Positions 27,001 through 33,000 of a stretch of 57,323 bases of DNA are shown one piece after another; within the stretch, counting starts at the first letter, position 1, and each line of letters starts with the position of its first letter. The stretch covers positions 1 to 57,323 of the forward strand of contig JAZDNV010000030.1 in NCBI GenBank assembly GCA_043799385.1, written 5' to 3'. Made by a program: the position numbers. The DNA comes from Candidatus Aenigmatarchaeota archaeon. Lineage in GTDB: Archaea; Aenigmatarchaeota; Aenigmatarchaeia; GW2011-AR5.

Positions 27001-30000
27001 TAAGGGCCTGAATCGCCTTCGAAGTTGAGCACGTCAGACCAGTCGAAAAGAATCGTTTTGTTGTTGTCCCTGCTAAGCATGGAGTATTTTATCGCAGATA
27101 GCGCAATGTCCTTTGCTACATTTGCTTTGCCAACTTTTCTCTTCCTTATCTCCTTCTCTGCTTTTGCTGTGCCATCATCCCTAAGGTCGTCGTATAAGAC
27201 GACAGAGCCTTCGCGCGAGGACATTTTTCCGCTCTTAAGCATCACGAGTTCGTAGGCAAGGTGATGGCTCTTTTCCGCCCAGTTCTTGTTAATCATTTCA
27301 AATGTTTTGAATAATTGCTGAAAATAAAGTTTTTGCTCTGAGCCTACGACGTGTACGCATCTATCAGGCTTTTCCTTGAACTCCAATTCTGCTAAGCCTA
27401 AATCCTTCGTCGAGTAGAGCGGGTCCTCGTTGCTCTTTAGTATTATGAACACGCCAAGATCGTAGCCGCGCAAATCCACAATCATCGCTCCCTCGCTCAT
27501 CATCGCTATCTTCTTCCTGAGCAGGCTTTTTGCAATTTTCATCCCGCGCTCGAAGACCTTGCTCTCGAAGTATAGTTTATCGAATTTCACGCCGAAATCT
27601 TTGTACACGTTACCGAAGTAATCCAAACTCCACTGCCTTGTTTTTTTCCACAGTTTCATCAGTTTTTTGCTGCTCTTGTAGAGGTCGCTGCTAATTTTAT
27701 TGACCTCTTCCTCCAGTTTTTTGCTGCCTTCTATCCTCTTATTGGCTTTTGCATAAACGATGCCAAGCCAGACGCCGTTACTCATATTTTTCGGCTTTTT
27801 TAATTTCAGGTTCTGCAGACCCCATAAGCATTTTGCCACATGCATTCCGATATCGCCCTGATAATTCGCTCGGATGACCGTATAGCCGTTGTGCTCCATT
27901 ATTCTTGACAGCGATTCGCCAATGCATATGTTTCTAACATGGCCAACGTGAAACGCTTTGTGCGTGTTCGCATGGCAGAATTCGATCATGACCTTTCCTT
28001 TCTTATCGCCTTTGCAGTAACGTTCTTTATCGTTAAGTATCTGCTTTATGACGAATCTTCCCAGTTTATTCCAGTCAGCGTAGAAATTTATGTAAGGTCC
28101 GGACGCCTCGACGCGTTTTATCAGCTCGCTGAACATTATCTCGCCGGTTATCGGCTTCACGATTTCTTTTGCTATCTCCACAGGATTTTTCTGCATTTTC
28201 TTTGCCAGGGAAAAACACGGAAAAGCAAGATCGGCGCCAATCTCTTTTGGCGGTATCTCCAATACGCTTTCGCCAACTGCATTTTTTACTGTCTTCTCAC
28301 ACTCTTCCCGGAATTTCTGGAAACTCATAATTACCGATTATCACCTTTTGTTTTTCAAGGATATAAAAACTAGTTTTTCGTTTTGAGTAATTTATAGACA
28401 GGAATATACCCGGCACCTATGTCATAGAGCAGCAATACAAGCCATATCTCCCATTCACCCGTACAAACGCTCACCAAAAGGGCTGTTATCTCCAGAAACG
28501 GTCGGTGGCTCAGAATTTCATAAAATAGTTTCTTCTTTTTTTCGAACCTGTCGCTCACTATCTCATCGGCAATGCCAGCAAGGACAAATGATAGGAACAA
28601 GATAACGTCAATTGAGCCGAAACTAAAGAAATATGTTGCTATAAAAAATGTAATTATGCCCAGCATATGCCCGTAATAATCTATCTTTCTGCAGATTACC
28701 AGACCTACTATCACGGCAAGAGCCAAAGACATTGTTACTGGTATCTCTTTTGCTATGAATGCTATCAGAAATCCATAAACAATTGCGGATGATACGACAA
28801 CGGGTTTCGGTATTCTGGTTTTTCTGTCATAATAATCGTCGACGATTCTTGTAAAAAAACCTACAATAATCGAAAGAAAAATTACAGGATTCATACCAAC
28901 GCCGCAACTATTAACGGGAATATTATGGTTGCATCGCCTTCAACGAACACATGATTCGCGTCTTTGTTTATCTTGCTCCAGGAAACTGCTTCTTTGGGCC
29001 TTGCGCCTGACAAAGAACCGTCATATTCGCTGCCCGTCGACACGTAAACGGCATAATCCAGACCGCCGCGAACGATGTTCACTCCGATTAGATGGTGCTT
29101 TGCAACGCCGCCACCTAGGATTATACCGCCTGTCTTCTCTGAATTATAGACCATGTCCGCCAGCTTATTCATATCAGCCGTGACGTCAATGCCAAACTCG
29201 CTGTTTTCTTTTTCGAAGTTCTTGAAAAAATATAAATCGAGACCGAGCGCACCGTCTGTTATGGCTGGGCAAAATATTGGTATGTTATTTTTAGTTGCCC
29301 AATACATTATCGAATTCTCATCGTCTATCCTCTTTCCGAGCTCAAAAATCAATTCTGACGGCGAGATCATCTTGCCGCTGCTCTTCTGTCTGCAAAGCAT
29401 TTCGGCAAAGAATGTGTGCAATTCCTTTTCCAGAATGCTGTAGCGGTCGTTCGGCACAAATATGTTTCCGATTCTGTTGACGCCGTTTCTGTGCAAATCC
29501 GCATCGTCTGCGTTGAAATCACCCAAAAGAAATGGTAATTTGGATTTTATCAAATCCTCTTCTATTGAACCCACGGACGTTATCACTACATCTACCAACT
29601 TGTTTTTTACTAAATAGGCAAAGGTTTCCCTTAATCCCGAGGAAACCATGTTTGAAGTAAAAGAGATGAATATCGTAGCATTATTCTTTTTCATCTTCTT
29701 GATTATATCGACTGCTCGTGACAGGTTTGTTGCCTGGAAACCAACATTCTTCATGCTCCCTACAAATTCTGCAATATTCTTTTTGCTGTAATCCACACCA
29801 CCTATTTTTTCATATTCCAGGGGTTCGCAACCCCTTCTCAGTAAATTCCTTCTCATCTCCTTCATTCCTAGACTTGATTTCAGGAAAGACTCAACGCTTT
29901 CGATATCGAATTCCTTGCATGAAAATATATCAACTGTTATATAGCCCTTTTCAGGATAGGTGTGGATAGTTATATTGCTCTCTGTAATTGCAACAAATGC

Positions 30001-33000
30001 GGTTATCCCGCGCTCATCATCACCGGGTTCATGCCTGACAACAAGTACTTCGCTTATCATTTTCATTTCTAGCATCTTGACAAGCTCTTCTATCGTTTCC
30101 TTTATTTTTCGTTCATTGTCAAGGCTATCCGAATCGCAGCCGAAGCCGTCTATTATAAAATGGTTCCCTAAACCGTGTGATGAATTAATCTTCATTGAAT
30201 CACCTTATGATACCTAATCGTATGTAAGAAGTCGTTTATGGTTGCGTCATTGCCTTGAACGTCTTGAAAACCATGTTATAAATATGAACAGAATGCTTAA
30301 AACTCTATCTTCCGCTCTTTATCGAAATTATGTCCCCGTCCTTTAGTTTATAGTCAGCGGAAACGTTCTTTCCTGTCCTCGCATCTACGGCTGCTATAAA
30401 TTTTTTTCCTATGTCCTGGTGGACCTCGTAGGCAAGATCCAGCGCCGTCGCCCCTCTCTTCAACAAGAGGGCGTCCGGAAGGACATTGTTGTATTTGTCA
30501 GTGAACTTATGCTGGTCGGCAACAGGATAAACGACAATCATCCCCAGCAAGTCGAATACCGTTCTATTCAGCGTTTCCTGCACGCCGGTATTCCTTCGCT
30601 CAATGAATTTCTTTATGAAGTCTAATGCATTTTTCTGCTTATCGCTCAATTCGCCTGTTATCTCAAATGCATTAGCGCCTGGAATATATTTTATCAGATT
30701 CTCCTTCGCCGCTTCTCGCAACGCCAGCTCGATTTCTGTGGATGTTGGGATGATGTTGTATTCTTGAAATTCGCTTTTCATCTTTTCTATATTCTTCTCA
30801 GAACTAAGGACATCAACTTTATTCGCAGCTATGAGCATCGGCTTGGATATGAGCCGCAAGTTATTTATGAACCGCAATTCATCGCTCTCTCTCCAGTTCC
30901 TTGTGTTCTCGTCCAGCGAAGATTCTGACAACGCTTTTTTAATATCATTTTCATCGATGCCAAGCCCTGAAAAGCGCTTTGCCAGAATTTCAAAGAAATT
31001 CTTGTCGCTGAGTATTTTCCAGTCCTTTTCCATTATGTTCAATAGCCAGTAATCCAGTTCTCGTTCGAGCATTCGCACGTTCTGAGACGGGTCGAAACCA
31101 TCAGCAGCGTTTCCTTCGCTGTCCGTTTTTCCTGATGCGTCAAGAACATGAATGAATGCTTTCGTTTGCATTATGTCATCGAGGAAAGCGTTGCCGCGAC
31201 CGCGACCGAGATGCGCATCGGGCACGAGTCCTGCAACATCCCACAGCTTCATGGGAACAAAACGCACGCCGTCAACGCATTTCTTGCATTGCAGTTTTAG
31301 TTCGGTGCAGGGGCATTTCACGGTTACATGCGCCAATCCTTCGTTCGGTTCCAGCGTCGTGAAGGGGTACGGCGCGATCTTTACGTCTTTCAACGTTGCG
31401 GCTTTGAAGAACGTCGATTTTCCGGAATTCGGGCATCCAACCAATCCGATTTCAATCATAAAGAAAATTTATCGAGAATGTTTAAAAACCCTCAGTTTTA
31501 AGAGCATTTCCATCATACCTTATTCGTGATAAAAATGAAAATCTTGGCAATAACGGTAATGGCATTATTTCTATTTTCAGTTGCCTTAGCAATTCCAGCA
31601 GAAAACAAAGCAGATGCAAAGAACTTGGAAAAAATAGAATTCATACACTACAAGAAAGATTTTGCAAAGGCGCCAGCTAAAGCACCGAAGCCACCGACAT
31701 GCTACAAGTTTCTGACGCCAACAAAGGTAAAGTGGCAGAATACAGTAAATTATGTAATCAATCCGACAAACCCACAAGGCCTTGATGAGAACTTTGTAAC
31801 AAGTACAGTCTATAACTCAGCGGAAACATGGGATGCAGCAACATCTAAAGAATTGATGAATGGCTACACAATTGATTCTACAGCAACTTACGGAGTTCAG
31901 AACTATGTGAATGCAATAACATTCGGTAATTACCCAACACCAGGGGTGATAGCAGTAACAACAGTATGGTACAACCCAACAACAAAAACAATAGTCGAAT
32001 TCGACATGATGTTCGACACAGACTGGACATGGGGAGATGCAGCAATTGATGCAAAGAAAATGGACTTGCAGAATATAGCAACGCATGAACTTGGACATGT
32101 AGTTGGTTTGGGCGATGTCTATGACTCAGCTTGCTCAGCAGCAACAATGTACGGATACAGTTGGTATGGAGATGTTGGAAAAAGAGACTTGGCACAACCA
32201 GACATAACAGGATTGCAGAAACTGTATGGAGTCTAAGTTTTCTTTTTTTATTTATAATTATAAATTAGTATCTTCTCGGCAGGCGCATCTCCATGTTTTT
32301 CAACCGCTCGTTTATCGTTTCCGTTTGGCTGCGTATCGCCTGAAGTTGCGCCTCGATAACGCCCAATCTTTCAGCTATATCATAATCCTTCTCGCGACTG
32401 TAATCTTTTCCATAGTCATCGCCTAGCGAAATTGGCCCCCTCTCCTTGAATCTGCTCGAACCTAATGAGGGTTCTTCAAATCTTGATTGTTCTCTAAAAT
32501 TAGTATTATCGAAACTGTTTTCAGTAGGCTCCTGAAACTCTGCCATGTCGTTCTTTGTATTGAATTTGTCTTCTTTCATATCAGGGCCCAGAACGTGGGA
32601 CCTTATATCCTCTATGTCGTCATCGCTCCTGCCAAGAATCCTGTTCTTTATCGAACTGAATATACTCATCAGTCTTCCCTCGCTGTGCCAAGCGTCCTCA
32701 ATATATTTTCCTTCAGTTTGTTTATAAGGTCCTTTTCGTACTCTAAATACATTCTCCTCTGCTTATAATAAAACATGTAGTTGTAAAACCACCAGAAGCT
32801 CTTCTGTATGAAATTAGTGTACTCATATTTTGTCTCAACCCAACCGTCTATCACAATGTTCAGCCATCCTGTTCTATCCTTGCTGGACTGCGCCCCCTGC
32901 GCGCGGACCTTTGCCTTGCTGAACGTCCAGTTATCGTATTCTTTCTTGACGCGCCAGTAGCCGTAGAACGTTCTTGGGTCGTTCGTTATGTCCCATCTTA

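What a model noticed while it worked through the whole genome (the two positions that open the first line are those of the whole stretch)
28891..30195. SpeD-homologue fused to the only deoxyhypusine synthase, no spermidine synthase
g00863 fuses a pyruvoyl AdoMetDC/SpeD-family decarboxylase domain (res. 12-122) to the genome's only deoxyhypusine synthase (res. 144-432), while no spermidine synthase is found. I read the N-domain as an arginine decarboxylase (SpeDA type) that feeds agmatine straight to the DHS domain, so that aIF5A is hypusinated from agmatine, with the agmatinase-like g00066 trimming the product, without any spermidine. New would be a natural fusion that answers the open question whether archaea have agmatine-dependent DHS, and a one-gene module to test it.
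Evidence so far: pfam.tsv: AdoMet_dc 1e-27 (12-122), DS 6.5e-114 (144-432); processing motif TES|NITIHTYPE present. Spermine_synth PF01564: 0 hits in the six-frame genome, controls ring in 10 of 14; no other decarboxylase family for Arg/Orn in pfam.tsv. aIF5A = g00574; arginase-fold g00066 best hits N1-aminopropylagmatine ureohydrolase/agmatinase 32%. Same two families on one chain in 56 of the 119 other proteins among the best 120 database relatives, named only 'deoxyhypusine synthase', from Woesearchaeota and other DPANN. Papers: PMC10407285 (passages, call 56) shows DPANN SpeD homologues next to speY are arginine decarboxylases; PMC13625781 (passages, call 57) asks whether archaea have Agm-dependent DHS; [...]
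(Added by a program. Inside this text positions count along the whole contig: contig position 1 is position 1 of the stretch shown here. "Call 12" and the like, gene names such as g00115 and contig names such as C1 are that model's own, and its searches are not shown. The text may have been shortened before it was handed on; [...] marks where a part breaks off. The agent that wrote the report below was given it as the finding of a first reader that could run no searches.)

Follow-up and report, generated by a model that had tools for sequence, protein, structure and literature searches.

The report
Arginine-decarboxylase-like domain fused to deoxyhypusine synthase
A tiny-genome (DPANN) archaeon has joined a self-cleaving decarboxylase, most likely making agmatine from arginine, to its only deoxyhypusine synthase, which suggests that the essential modification of translation factor aIF5A is fed from agmatine instead of spermidine and gives a one-protein system to test that.

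Summary
ORF 28891-30195(-) is one 434-aa frame with a SpeD/AdoMetDC-family domain (res. 12-122) and a deoxyhypusine synthase (DHS) domain (144-432), catalytic residues intact in both. It is no artefact: 56 of the 119 other best database relatives carry both domains.

In 6 of 6 fused genomes tested the fusion is the only DHS homologue, none has spermidine synthase above cut-off, and aIF5A keeps its GKHG lysine.

New here: in other fused loci the gene is followed by a conserved unknown membrane protein (8 of 8) and lies beside an arginase-fold gene (6 of 8). The N-domain lacks the ornithine-decarboxylase marks and resembles arginase-linked SpeD homologues more than SpeE-linked AdoMetDCs.

Best reading (~0.5): a pyruvoyl arginine decarboxylase feeds agmatine to a DHS that modifies aIF5A, with a ureohydrolase trimming the guanidino group. 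Unproven: substrate, donor and target are inferred; pocket residues do not discriminate; this genome's arginase-fold gene is divergent and unlinked.

It is a fused variant of the published DPANN speDA-speY-speB cluster. I found no paper on the fusion; this scan saw it before in another genome (e1-2516940).

The parts
28891..30195 (-). Whole fusion gene, 434 aa: SpeD-family pyruvoyl decarboxylase domain, linker, deoxyhypusine synthase domain
   Evidence: Single ORF; both Pfam families on one chain; AlphaFold2 model mean pLDDT 88.6 with two folded domains
29830..30195 (-). N-terminal SpeD/AdoMetDC-family domain (res. 1-122), read as an arginine decarboxylase (SpeDA type)
   Evidence: PF02675 93.3 bits. 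S73, H78, C93 invariant in 35 fused proteins. 118.2 bits against a profile of arginase-linked SpeD homologues versus 76.0 against SpeE-linked ones. HTYPE motif and long loop, unlike the HTWPE and short loop of AdoMetDCs
29977..29979 (-). Codon of Ser73, predicted self-cleavage site (E72|S73) that becomes the pyruvoyl group; leaves a beta chain of 72 aa and an alpha chain of 362 aa that carries the DHS domain
   Evidence: Aligns with S63 of T. maritima AdoMetDC; role of S63/H68/C83 from PMC10407285 section 7; Ser present in 66 of 66 fused rows. Cleavage itself is inferred
29767..29829 (-). Linker, res. 123-143
   Evidence: Lowest model confidence between the domains (block 121-130 pLDDT 60); poorly conserved in alignment A2
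28900..29766 (-). Deoxyhypusine synthase domain, res. 144-432
   Evidence: PF01916 376.3 bits; NCBIfam DHS equivalogs NF003052 395.6 bits (cut-off 380) and TIGR00321 344.8 (cut-off 304.25) passed; SpeY model NF002699 146.5 versus cut-off 500
28972..28974 (-). Codon of Lys408, equivalent of the catalytic Lys329 of human DHS
   Evidence: Alignment to human DHS chains: K408=K329, H367=H288, E402=E323, W406=W327; all invariant in 35 fused proteins
28370..28894 (-). 174-aa polytopic membrane protein of unknown family; its start overlaps the fusion gene's stop by 4 bases. Conserved partner of this DHS clade
   Evidence: Found directly after the fusion gene in 8 of 8 fused loci with downstream DNA and beside 6 of 14 loci fetched with the unfused relative P0080. 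No Pfam family. Model pLDDT 90.2 without a convincing solved-structure match, best Z 5.0. Invariant G12, D19, Y40, G41, D72, H76, E111, R131, E135, D158

Best explanation
The gene encodes a bifunctional enzyme that makes the essential modification of aIF5A independent of spermidine.

Step 1 (inferred). The proenzyme cleaves itself between E72 and S73, and S73 becomes a pyruvoyl group.

Step 2 (inferred from context and similarity). The N-domain decarboxylates L-arginine to agmatine.

Step 3 (inferred). The DHS domain, tethered to the pyruvoyl-bearing alpha chain, uses NAD+ to oxidise the primary amine of agmatine. It carries the 4-guanidinobutyl group on Lys408 and passes it to Lys36 of aIF5A. 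It may also, or instead, pass it to a second agmatine, giving bis-guanidino-homospermidine as bacterial SpeY does.

Step 4 (inferred). An agmatinase-like ureohydrolase removes urea, leaving deoxyhypusine, or homospermidine. That enzyme is encoded in the operon in most relatives and elsewhere in this genome.

The fusion keeps agmatine next to its consumer. What is shown is the architecture, the intact catalytic residues, the gene content of the genomes and the conserved operon. No chemical step is shown.
For: Architecture and intact catalytic residues in both domains.

The fusion recurs on many independent contigs: 56 of 119 relatives and 9 single-ORF loci in named MAGs.

Sole DHS homologue: own genome and 5 of 5 other fused genomes, one DS match each, in a frame of about 450 aa.

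No spermidine synthase: own genome 0 matches; 0 of 5 other fused genomes above cut-off.

No other Arg/Orn decarboxylase family in the own genome.

aIF5A is present with its target lysine: own SKPGKHGGAK, 5 of 5 other fused genomes, and K36 invariant in 23 sequences.

DHS and aIF5A are each found in 14 of 14 high-quality genomes of the order, so the function is probably indispensable.

Operon: fusion, then membrane protein, then arginase-fold gene, or arginase-fold gene first, in 6 of 8 fused loci. Three of four operon arginase-fold proteins scanned pass the agmatinase equivalog cut-off.

N-domain:
- no SpeDC marks: ours reads VAITES|NITIHTYPE against QLIETS|LVSGHFAN in supplementary Fig. S5 of PMC10407285;
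- it scores higher against arginase-linked than SpeE-linked SpeD profiles in 10 of 10 fused N-domains;
- it shares the long loop and F/Y, not the W and short loop of AdoMetDCs.

In the order, PvlArgDC is found in 8 of 11 SpeD+SpeE+ genomes but in 2 of 21 SpeD+SpeE- genomes. This fits SpeE-less SpeD homologues standing in as the arginine decarboxylase.

Literature:
- DPANN SpeD homologues clustered with speY and speB are arginine decarboxylases (PMC10407285, section 4);
- SpeY couples agmatine (PMC13625781 discussion; PMC10981699 passages);
- an agmatine-to-aIF5A model with agmatinase trimming was proposed for Haloferax (PMC5178350 passages).
Against: No substrate can be read from the sequence.

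The N-domain passes the NCBIfam AdoMetDC equivalog TIGR03330 (79.9 bits against a cut-off of 75.65). It also keeps the Pro that is invariant in AdoMetDCs.

In the quick SpeD tree the fused N-domains sit, weakly (support 80, unresolved), on the same side as the SpeE-linked clade rather than inside the arginase-linked clade.

The DHS domain is of the ordinary archaeal DHS type and far from the SpeY models. In this protein the position of human Asp243 is Asp and that of Asp316 is Leu. That is the signature of the P. horikoshii DHS 7cmc. The DHS of T. kodakarensis, from the same order, uses spermidine in vitro according to PMC5178350; I did not see the T. kodakarensis sequence.

DPANN cells may take spermidine from a host.

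In this genome the arginase-fold gene is on another contig among unrelated genes and scores 127 bits, below the cut-off of 174.3. Two of the 8 fused loci show no arginase-fold gene within 3 kb of the fusion gene.

Related genomes of genus g7 pair a SpeD homologue with a DHS but have no arginase-fold gene (0 of 11), so trimming by an arginase-fold enzyme is not a general rule.

The genome is 91% complete.
Confidence: 0.5

Rival explanations
1. SpeDA-SpeY fusion for polyamine synthesis only. The enzyme turns arginine into agmatine and couples two agmatines to bis-guanidino-homospermidine, and the ureohydrolase gives homospermidine. aIF5A is then modified from homospermidine by the same active site, or not from agmatine at all.
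For: This is the demonstrated chemistry of bacterial SpeY with ADC and SpeB-like partners (PMC13625781 abstract and discussion; PMC10981699). Unfused speD-then-DHS-like gene pairs with arginase-fold genes nearby occur in Chloroflexota bacteria, which have no aIF5A (L016, L060, L064, L069). Leu at the HsD316 position matches CdmS Leu286.
Against: The DHS domain passes the DHS equivalogs and scores 146.5 against a cut-off of 500 for the SpeY model. The bacterial partners are of another DHS-like class (best NF002006). The fusion is the only DHS homologue in 6 of 6 fused genomes, while aIF5A keeps its lysine. Both roles may coexist, so this rival overlaps the best explanation.
Confidence: 0.2
2. 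The DHS domain is an ordinary spermidine-dependent DHS that uses spermidine scavenged from a host. The N-domain supplies agmatine or another amine for a different need, and the fusion only couples expression.
For: DPANN genomes are reduced (786 kb here). The pocket signature equals that of the P. horikoshii DHS 7cmc. T. kodakarensis DHS uses spermidine in vitro (PMC5178350). Fused and unfused DHS domains are intermixed in one clade. The unfused members fetched keep the membrane partner but show no SpeD or arginase-fold gene within 5 kb.
Against: A stable fusion seen in 57 of the 120 best-matching proteins, this one included, plus operon linkage with an arginase-fold gene in 6 of 8 loci, argues for a shared pathway. 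All 119 relatives analysed, this protein included, lack Asp at the HsD316 position; 116 of them (not this protein, P0002 or P0034) also lack it at the HsD243 position. I did not search for polyamine transporters.
Confidence: 0.15
3. The N-domain is a true AdoMet decarboxylase, and decarboxylated AdoMet feeds an unrecognised aminopropyl transferase that makes the spermidine used by the DHS domain.
For: TIGR03330 is passed narrowly. Pro81 is kept. In the quick tree the fused N-domains lie next to the SpeE-linked clade.
Against: No SpeE in 6 of 6 fused genomes. The SpeE-linked AdoMetDCs of the same order and the two solved AdoMetDCs differ by W80 and a loop 4-6 residues shorter. The profile score favours the arginase-linked group by 42 bits. 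All SpeE-less candidates whose assays are reported in section 4 and in the passages I read of PMC10407285 had arginine or ornithine decarboxylase activity.
Confidence: 0.07

Closest known systems
speDA-speY-speB gene clusters of DPANN archaea (Ca. Woesearchaeota PIN80235, Ca. Diapherotrites PIN84875) and bacteria; Li, Liang, Phillips and Michael, JBC 2023 (PMC10407285; abstract, sections 4 and 7, passages and supplement text read)
   Same: A SpeD homologue without SpeE, linked to a DHS homologue and an arginase-fold gene. The DPANN SpeD homologues were shown to be arginine decarboxylases.
   Different: Here the two enzymes are one polypeptide. The DHS part is of the archaeal DHS type and is the genome's only DHS. 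A conserved membrane protein belongs to the operon. The paper's main text and supplement do not mention a SpeD-DHS fusion. I could not bring PIN80235 into the session to measure identity.
[quoted passage not shown]
   Same: A DHS-fold, NAD-dependent enzyme with a catalytic Lys, working with an arginine decarboxylase upstream and a ureohydrolase downstream. Leu at the position of human Asp316.
   Different: Scores 146.5 bits against a cut-off of 500 for the SpeY model. It has Asp, and its relatives Gln, where CdmS has Phe204. It occurs in an archaeon that has aIF5A and no other DHS.
Haloferax volcanii model 1(d) of deoxyhypusine synthesis from agmatine (Prunetti et al. 2016, PMC5178350; abstract and passages read)
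   Same: No spermidine route. DHS, an agmatinase-like gene and aIF5A are functionally linked. The proposal is transfer of the agmatine moiety to aIF5A followed by ureohydrolase trimming.
   Different: Haloferax uses the unrelated PvlArgDC and separate genes. The model was not confirmed in vitro. Here the decarboxylase is of the SpeD family and physically fused to the DHS.
Canonical archaeal and eukaryotic deoxyhypusine synthase (for example human 6XXJ, P. horikoshii 7cmc)
   Same: Equivalog-level match. K408, H367, E402 and W406 are conserved. 7cmc is the best solved match, E 2e-92.
   Different: An N-terminal pyruvoyl decarboxylase domain. Leu replaces human Asp316. There is no spermidine synthase in the genome.
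SpeD-SpeDC fusion proteins (PMC10407285, passages from section 6)
   Same: A SpeD-family domain fused to the next enzyme's supplier within polyamine metabolism.
   Different: Those fuse two SpeD-family domains. This one fuses a SpeD-family domain to a DHS.

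Membership tests
SpeD/AdoMetDC class 1b superfamily (PF02675) | Profile match above the curated cut-off | tested here: met
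   93.3 bits against a cut-off of 25, res. 12-122
SpeD/AdoMetDC class 1b superfamily (PF02675) | Self-processing and catalytic residues Ser, His, Cys (T. maritima S63, H68, C83) | tested here: met
   S73, H78, C93 aligned and invariant in 35 fused proteins. Residue roles from PMC10407285 section 7
Bona fide AdoMet decarboxylase (SpeD proper) | Obligatory partner spermidine synthase in the genome | tested here: not met
   PF01564 gives 0 matches in the own genome (91% complete), with controls ringing in 10 of 14; 0 of 5 other fused genomes above cut-off
Bona fide AdoMet decarboxylase (SpeD proper) | Sequence marks shared by SpeE-linked and solved AdoMetDCs: HTWPE and a short loop before the processing strand | tested here: not met
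   SpeE-linked clade: W in 11 of 12 and loop length 9 in 12 of 12. Fused: Y in 63 and F in 3 of 66 rows, loop length 13-15. T. maritima and A. aeolicus chains show W and the gap. These marks are my own derivation, not a published definition
Bona fide AdoMet decarboxylase (SpeD proper) | AdoMet decarboxylation activity | not testable with these tools
   Needs an enzyme assay
SpeDA (SpeD homologue turned arginine decarboxylase) | Arginine decarboxylase activity | not testable with these tools
   Needs an enzyme assay. PMC10407285 states that SpeDA cannot be cleanly told from AdoMetDC by sequence
SpeDA (SpeD homologue turned arginine decarboxylase) | Genomic context: no SpeE, linkage to speY/dhs and to an agmatine-consuming ureohydrolase | tested here: met
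   Fused to the DHS. An arginase-fold gene is in the operon in 6 of 8 related fused loci. In the own genome the arginase-fold gene is unlinked
SpeDA (SpeD homologue turned arginine decarboxylase) | Loss of the Pro that is invariant in AdoMetDC (the gamma mark of PMC10407285 Fig. 8) | tested here: inconclusive
   Pro81 is present in 66 of 66 fused rows and in 27 of 28 arginase-linked homologues. The paper speaks only of 'lack of conservation'. I could not see the figure, so the column is my guess
SpeDC (SpeD homologue turned ornithine decarboxylase) | Diagnostic Gln, Thr, Phe, Tyr around the processing site | tested here: not met
   Ours reads VAITES|NITIHTYPE. The SpeDC domains in supplementary Fig. 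S5 read QLIETS|LVSGHFAN. The mapping of the four marks onto that motif is my reading
Deoxyhypusine synthase (EC 2.5.1.46) | Curated equivalog models passed | tested here: met
   NF003052 395.6 bits (cut-off 380); TIGR00321 344.8 (cut-off 304.25)
Deoxyhypusine synthase (EC 2.5.1.46) | Catalytic Lys and the neighbouring His, Glu, Trp | tested here: met
   K408, H367, E402, W406 correspond to human K329, H288, E323, W327 and are invariant in A2
Deoxyhypusine synthase (EC 2.5.1.46) | Substrate protein aIF5A with the target Lys encoded in the genome | tested here: met
   C23:21898-22290(-), loop SKPGKHGGAK; K36 invariant in 23 sequences
Deoxyhypusine synthase (EC 2.5.1.46) | Spermidine-binding Asp pair of human DHS (Asp243, Asp316) | tested here: not met
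   D320 aligns with Asp243 after a one-residue insertion, and L395 replaces Asp316. Of the 119 relatives analysed, this protein included, 116 have neither Asp. P. horikoshii DHS also has Leu at the second position, so this does not exclude DHS function
Deoxyhypusine synthase (EC 2.5.1.46) | Binding and modification of aIF5A | not testable with these tools
[quoted passage not shown] | Curated equivalog model passed | tested here: not met
   NF002699 146.5 bits against a cut-off of 500; NF001980 129.4 against 450
[quoted passage not shown] | Phe and Leu in place of human Asp243 and Asp316 (PMC10981699) | tested here: inconclusive
   Leu is present at the second position. The first is Asp here, Gln in most relatives
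Agmatinase (the arginase-fold partner) | NCBIfam agmatinase equivalog TIGR01230 passed | tested here: not met
   Own protein 127 bits against a cut-off of 174.3. Operon copies L008 197.5, L011 196.9 and L013 187 pass; L007 161.2 does not

The most novel reading that the evidence does not exclude
A whole clade of DPANN deoxyhypusine synthases, fused to the decarboxylase or not and always paired with the unknown membrane protein, hypusinates aIF5A directly from agmatine. The 4-guanidinobutyl group would be placed on Lys36 (+113 Da) and trimmed to deoxyhypusine (+71 Da) by an agmatinase-like enzyme acting on a protein. This would be the first demonstrated spermidine-independent route to (deoxy)hypusine, with the fusion as its substrate-channelling form. 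The masses are my own arithmetic.
Probability: 0.3. Interest if true: 0.85.

Novelty: new variant of a known kind. Interest (0 to 1): 0.62.

Why it matters
Hypusine or deoxyhypusine on (a/e)IF5A is essential and, wherever it has been shown, made from spermidine.

Whether archaea have an agmatine-dependent route has been open since the Haloferax work of 2016 (PMC5178350). It was asked again in 2026 (PMC13625781).

A natural fusion of the presumed agmatine maker with the only DHS, in genomes without spermidine synthase, is the strongest kind of genomic argument for that route.

It also reduces the experiment to one recombinant protein plus aIF5A, arginine and NAD. And it flags an uncharacterised membrane protein as a constant partner of this DHS clade.

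Tried and rejected
1. Linking the N-domain to the characterised DPANN enzymes PIN80235 and PIN84875. A protein search with the N-domain alone returned 1 hit among 8 candidates. Exact look-ups of 10 SpeD homologues gave no PIN accession. The paper's supplement holds no such sequences. Left open.

2. TiaS as a test of whether the organism needs agmatine. TiaS_FLD was found in 0 of 70 genomes of the order, with controls ringing in 4. Uninformative.

3. Pocket residues as a donor predictor. The position of human Asp316 is Leu here, as in CdmS but also as in P. horikoshii DHS. Rejected as a discriminator.

4. Complex prediction of the DHS domain dimer with aIF5A. The tool answered that it was not available, so there is no result.

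5. Function of the membrane protein. No Pfam family even at E 5. Atlas neighbours are unnamed archaeal clusters. No solved fold above Z 5.0 and no Foldseek match at E 0.001 or better.

6. Whether the fusion arose once. The DHS-domain tree (FastTree) intermixes fused and unfused rows, with 22 changes. But one 'unfused' row is identical to a fused one over the DHS part, so some unfused rows may be truncated gene calls. No conclusion drawn.

7. The careful SpeD tree did not finish within the time limit; only the quick tree was read.

8. A frameshift or assembly artefact is rejected, given the intact frame and the many fused relatives.

Full report
**Observation.** The window holds one uninterrupted 434-aa ORF at 28891-30195 on the minus strand.
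- Pfam places AdoMet_dc (PF02675) on residues 12-122 (93.3 bits) and DS (PF01916) on 144-432 (376.3 bits).
- NCBIfam passes two deoxyhypusine synthase equivalogs: NF003052 at 395.6 bits (cut-off 380) and TIGR00321 at 344.8 (cut-off 304.25).
- The SpeY model NF002699 reaches only 146.5 bits against a cut-off of 500. The AdoMetDC equivalog TIGR03330 is passed narrowly, 79.9 against 75.65.
- S73, H78 and C93 align with S63, H68 and C83 of the T. maritima enzyme. PMC10407285 (section 7) names these as the processing and catalytic residues.
- In the DHS part, K408, H367, E402 and W406 correspond to human K329, H288, E323 and W327.
- An AlphaFold2 model has two confident domains joined by a weakly modelled linker (mean pLDDT 88.6).

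**The fusion is real and recurrent.**
- Of the 119 other proteins among the best 120 relatives, 56 carry both families. They come from several sources and many contigs.
- In named MAG contigs, nine loci (L005-L013; labelled Woesearchaeota, Aenigmatarchaeota, and some 'Methanosarcinales') have the same single ORF.
- In an alignment of 35 fused proteins the catalytic residues of both domains are invariant.
- Within the window's own taxonomic order (70 genomes) this genome is the only one where a single frame holds both the SpeD and the DS match.
- Its closest relatives are two fused proteins (P0002, P0003) and one unfused protein (P0034) from short or unnamed contigs.

**Gene content.** The genome is 786 kb in 31 contigs and 91.2% complete.

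| Family searched in the own genome | Result |
|---|---|
| Spermine_synth (SpeE) | 0 matches; controls ring in 10 of 14 |
| DS | 1, this ORF |
| AdoMet_dc | 1, this ORF |
| Arginase | 1, on contig C4 |
| eIF-5a | 1, on contig C23 |
| PvlArgDC | 0 |
| Orn_Arg_deC_N | 0 |
| OKR_DC_1 | one sub-threshold match, a DegT aminotransferase |

- Five further fused genomes (G075-G079) each have exactly one DS match, in a frame of about 450 aa.
- None of the five has a Spermine_synth match above cut-off.
- All five have aIF5A with the loop SRPGKHGHAK.
- The own aIF5A reads SKPGKHGGAK. K36 is invariant in 23 aligned sequences.
- In the order, DS is found in 63 of 70 genomes and aIF5A in 57 of 70, each in 14 of 14 high-quality genomes. 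So the DHS function looks indispensable, and in fused genomes only the fusion can supply it.

**Operon.**
- The 174-aa membrane protein whose start overlaps the fusion's stop (28370-28894) follows the fusion gene in 8 of 8 fused loci that extend downstream.
- In 6 of those 8 an arginase-fold gene lies on the same strand within 600 bases. It comes after the membrane protein in L008 and L010-L013, and just upstream in L007. L006 and L009 show none within 3 kb of the fusion gene.
- Three of four operon arginase-fold proteins scanned pass the agmatinase equivalog (L008 197.5, L011 196.9, L013 187 bits; cut-off 174.3). L007 scores 161.2.
- In this window arginyl-tRNA synthetase takes that place.
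- The genome's one arginase-fold gene sits on C4 between a methylase-family gene and an ERCC4 nuclease gene. It scores 127 bits, below the cut-off.
- The membrane protein also accompanies the DHS gene in 6 of the 14 loci fetched with the unfused relative P0080. None of the 14 shows a SpeD or arginase-fold gene within 5 kb.
- It has no Pfam family. Its model is confident (pLDDT 90.2) but has no convincing solved-structure relative: best Z 5.0, Foldseek nothing at E 0.001 or better.
- It keeps invariant charged residues: D19, D72, H76, E111, R131, E135, D158.

**What the N-domain is.**
- It is not of the ornithine-decarboxylase (SpeDC) type. The SpeDC domains printed in supplementary Fig. S5 of PMC10407285 read QLIETS|LVSGHFAN where ours reads VAITES|NITIHTYPE.
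- Against AdoMetDC: the SpeE-linked SpeD genes of the same order have HTWPE (W in 11 of 12) and a loop of 9 residues (12 of 12). The two solved AdoMetDCs (T. maritima, A. aeolicus) likewise show W and a gap at that loop.
- The fused domains have Y (63) or F (3) in 66 rows and a loop of 13-15. Some of those 66 rows are the same proteins seen through two tools.
- Arginase-linked bacterial homologues look the same: F in 27 of 28, loop 15-17.
- Profiles built from context-defined groups score the own N-domain at 118.2 bits (arginase-linked, 28 sequences) against 76.0 bits (SpeE-linked, 12 sequences). All 10 fused domains tested go the same way.
- In the order, PvlArgDC occurs in 8 of 11 genomes with SpeD and SpeE, but in 2 of 21 with SpeD and no SpeE. 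Kin are not independent, so this is a pattern, not a test.
- Against the reading: TIGR03330 is passed and Pro81 is kept.
- Also against it: a quick, poorly resolved tree puts the fused domains, together with the speD genes of two DPANN speD-speY pairs (L015, L033), beside the SpeE-linked clade with support 80.
- The paper itself says SpeDA cannot be cleanly separated from AdoMetDC by sequence.

**What the DHS domain is.**
- By NCBIfam it belongs with archaeal DHS. So do the DHS genes that lie next to speD in other arrangements in relatives (L014, L018, L030, L050, L058).
- The DHS-like genes right after speD in Chloroflexota, Micrarchaeia, one Pacearchaeota MAG and one Woesearchaeota MAG are of another class, with best models NF002006, NF002630 or NF001980.
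- In two of those DPANN genomes (G001, G002) that other-class gene is nevertheless the only DS homologue. G001 is flagged unpublished.
- The caldomycin paper (PMC10981699, passages) reports that agmatine-coupling CdmS has Phe204 and Leu286 where human DHS has Asp243 and Asp316.
- Here L395 stands at the Asp316 position and D320 at the Asp243 position, after a one-residue insertion.
- Of the 119 relatives analysed (this protein included), fused or not, 116 have neither Asp: G-L-Q/N/H and GS-L/V/I/S.
- But P. horikoshii DHS (7cmc) also has Leu at the second position. T. kodakarensis DHS transfers the aminobutyl group from spermidine in vitro (PMC5178350). So the pocket does not settle the donor.

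**Mechanism proposed.**
- The proenzyme cleaves itself at E72|S73.
- The pyruvoyl N-domain turns arginine into agmatine.
- The tethered DHS domain oxidises agmatine's primary amine with NAD+ and carries the 4-guanidinobutyl group on K408.
- It hands that group to aIF5A K36, or to a second agmatine as SpeY does.
- A ureohydrolase then releases urea to give deoxyhypusine, or homospermidine.

All chemical steps are inferred. They combine the demonstrated SpeY chemistry (PMC13625781, PMC10981699) with model 1(d) proposed for Haloferax (PMC5178350).

I give this about 0.5.
- A polyamine-only SpeDA-SpeY role: about 0.2. It overlaps, since one active site might do both.
- Scavenged spermidine with an unrelated role for the N-domain: about 0.15.
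- A true AdoMetDC: about 0.07.

**Known and new.**
- The linkage of speDA, speY and speB in DPANN archaea, and the arginine decarboxylase activity of two DPANN SpeD homologues, are published (PMC10407285, section 4).
- I found no mention of the fusion in that paper's text or supplement. There is none in the passages of PMC13625781 either; its one 'fusion' is an artificial TBLASTN query.
- Two full-text searches returned only papers that concern other things.
- Database names call the protein simply 'deoxyhypusine synthase'.
- This scan noted the same kind of operon in another genome (e1-2516940) and a related agmatine-route cluster (e1-3200548).
- I file the finding as a new variant of a known kind.

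**Limits.**
- Completeness is 91%.
- Groups used for profiles were defined by gene context.
- The trees are quick ones.
- The supplementary figures of the papers were seen only as extracted text.

Noticed in passing
window 28370-28894 (-); also L006-L013, L136, L137, L140-L142, L149: A 174-aa membrane protein with about six helices and invariant D19, D72, H76, E111, R131, E135, D158. It is a constant neighbour of this DHS clade whether or not the decarboxylase is fused. It has no Pfam family and no solved-fold relative.
   Followed up: partly
L105/L058 (G022), L111 (G023), L106 (G038), L109 (G048): In the window's own family, stand-alone SpeD homologues that lack the conserved Pro (HTFAAQ, HTFVAQ and the like) lie head-to-head with DHS genes. 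Those DHS genes keep both human-type Asp residues (GD..., GSDSG); in G022 a second DHS follows in tandem. None of the four has SpeE or PvlArgDC, and G022 and G023 (genus g7, 0 of 11) also have no arginase-fold gene. No reading so far explains what this pair makes.
   Followed up: partly
L121:3947-5245 (G051) and L100:3269-4339 (G033): Single ORFs that join spermidine synthase and a SpeD-family domain (432 aa and 356 aa). The SpeD part of the G051 protein reads QLIETS at the processing site, the ornithine-decarboxylase-type motif.
   Followed up: no
L120:3116-4408 (G065): A 430-aa ORF with a divergent SpeD-family domain at residues 31-139 and about 290 further residues that matched none of my DHS, SpeE or arginase queries.
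   Followed up: no
window 26673-28328 (-) and L058:3855-5522: Arginyl-tRNA synthetase lies next to the speD/DHS locus both here and in G022. The same methyltransferase and Obg-like GTPase flank both loci, so the two loci are syntenic despite fused versus split genes.
   Followed up: no
order of G000, 70 genomes: The TiaS_FLD domain (tRNA-Ile2 agmatidine synthetase) was found in 0 of 70 genomes, although it rings in all 4 archaeal controls. Either TiaS is very divergent or this order decodes AUA in another way.
   Followed up: no
L126-L130 (G013, G028, G057, G029, G027): Adjacent pairs of a DHS-like gene (343-379 aa) and an arginase-fold gene (282-297 aa), some overlapping, look like speY-speB modules. 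In G013, G029 and G057 they exist beside a second DHS homologue elsewhere in the genome; G028 shows only this one DS match (76% complete).
   Followed up: no
L009:5200-5586 (-): One fused locus carries a second, stand-alone SpeD homologue 1.7 kb downstream on the other strand. It belongs to a different SpeD clade.
   Followed up: no
P0058, P0059, P0062: Three fused proteins have His in place of the catalytic Cys of the decarboxylase domain (DLFTHDE instead of DIFSCKE).
   Followed up: no
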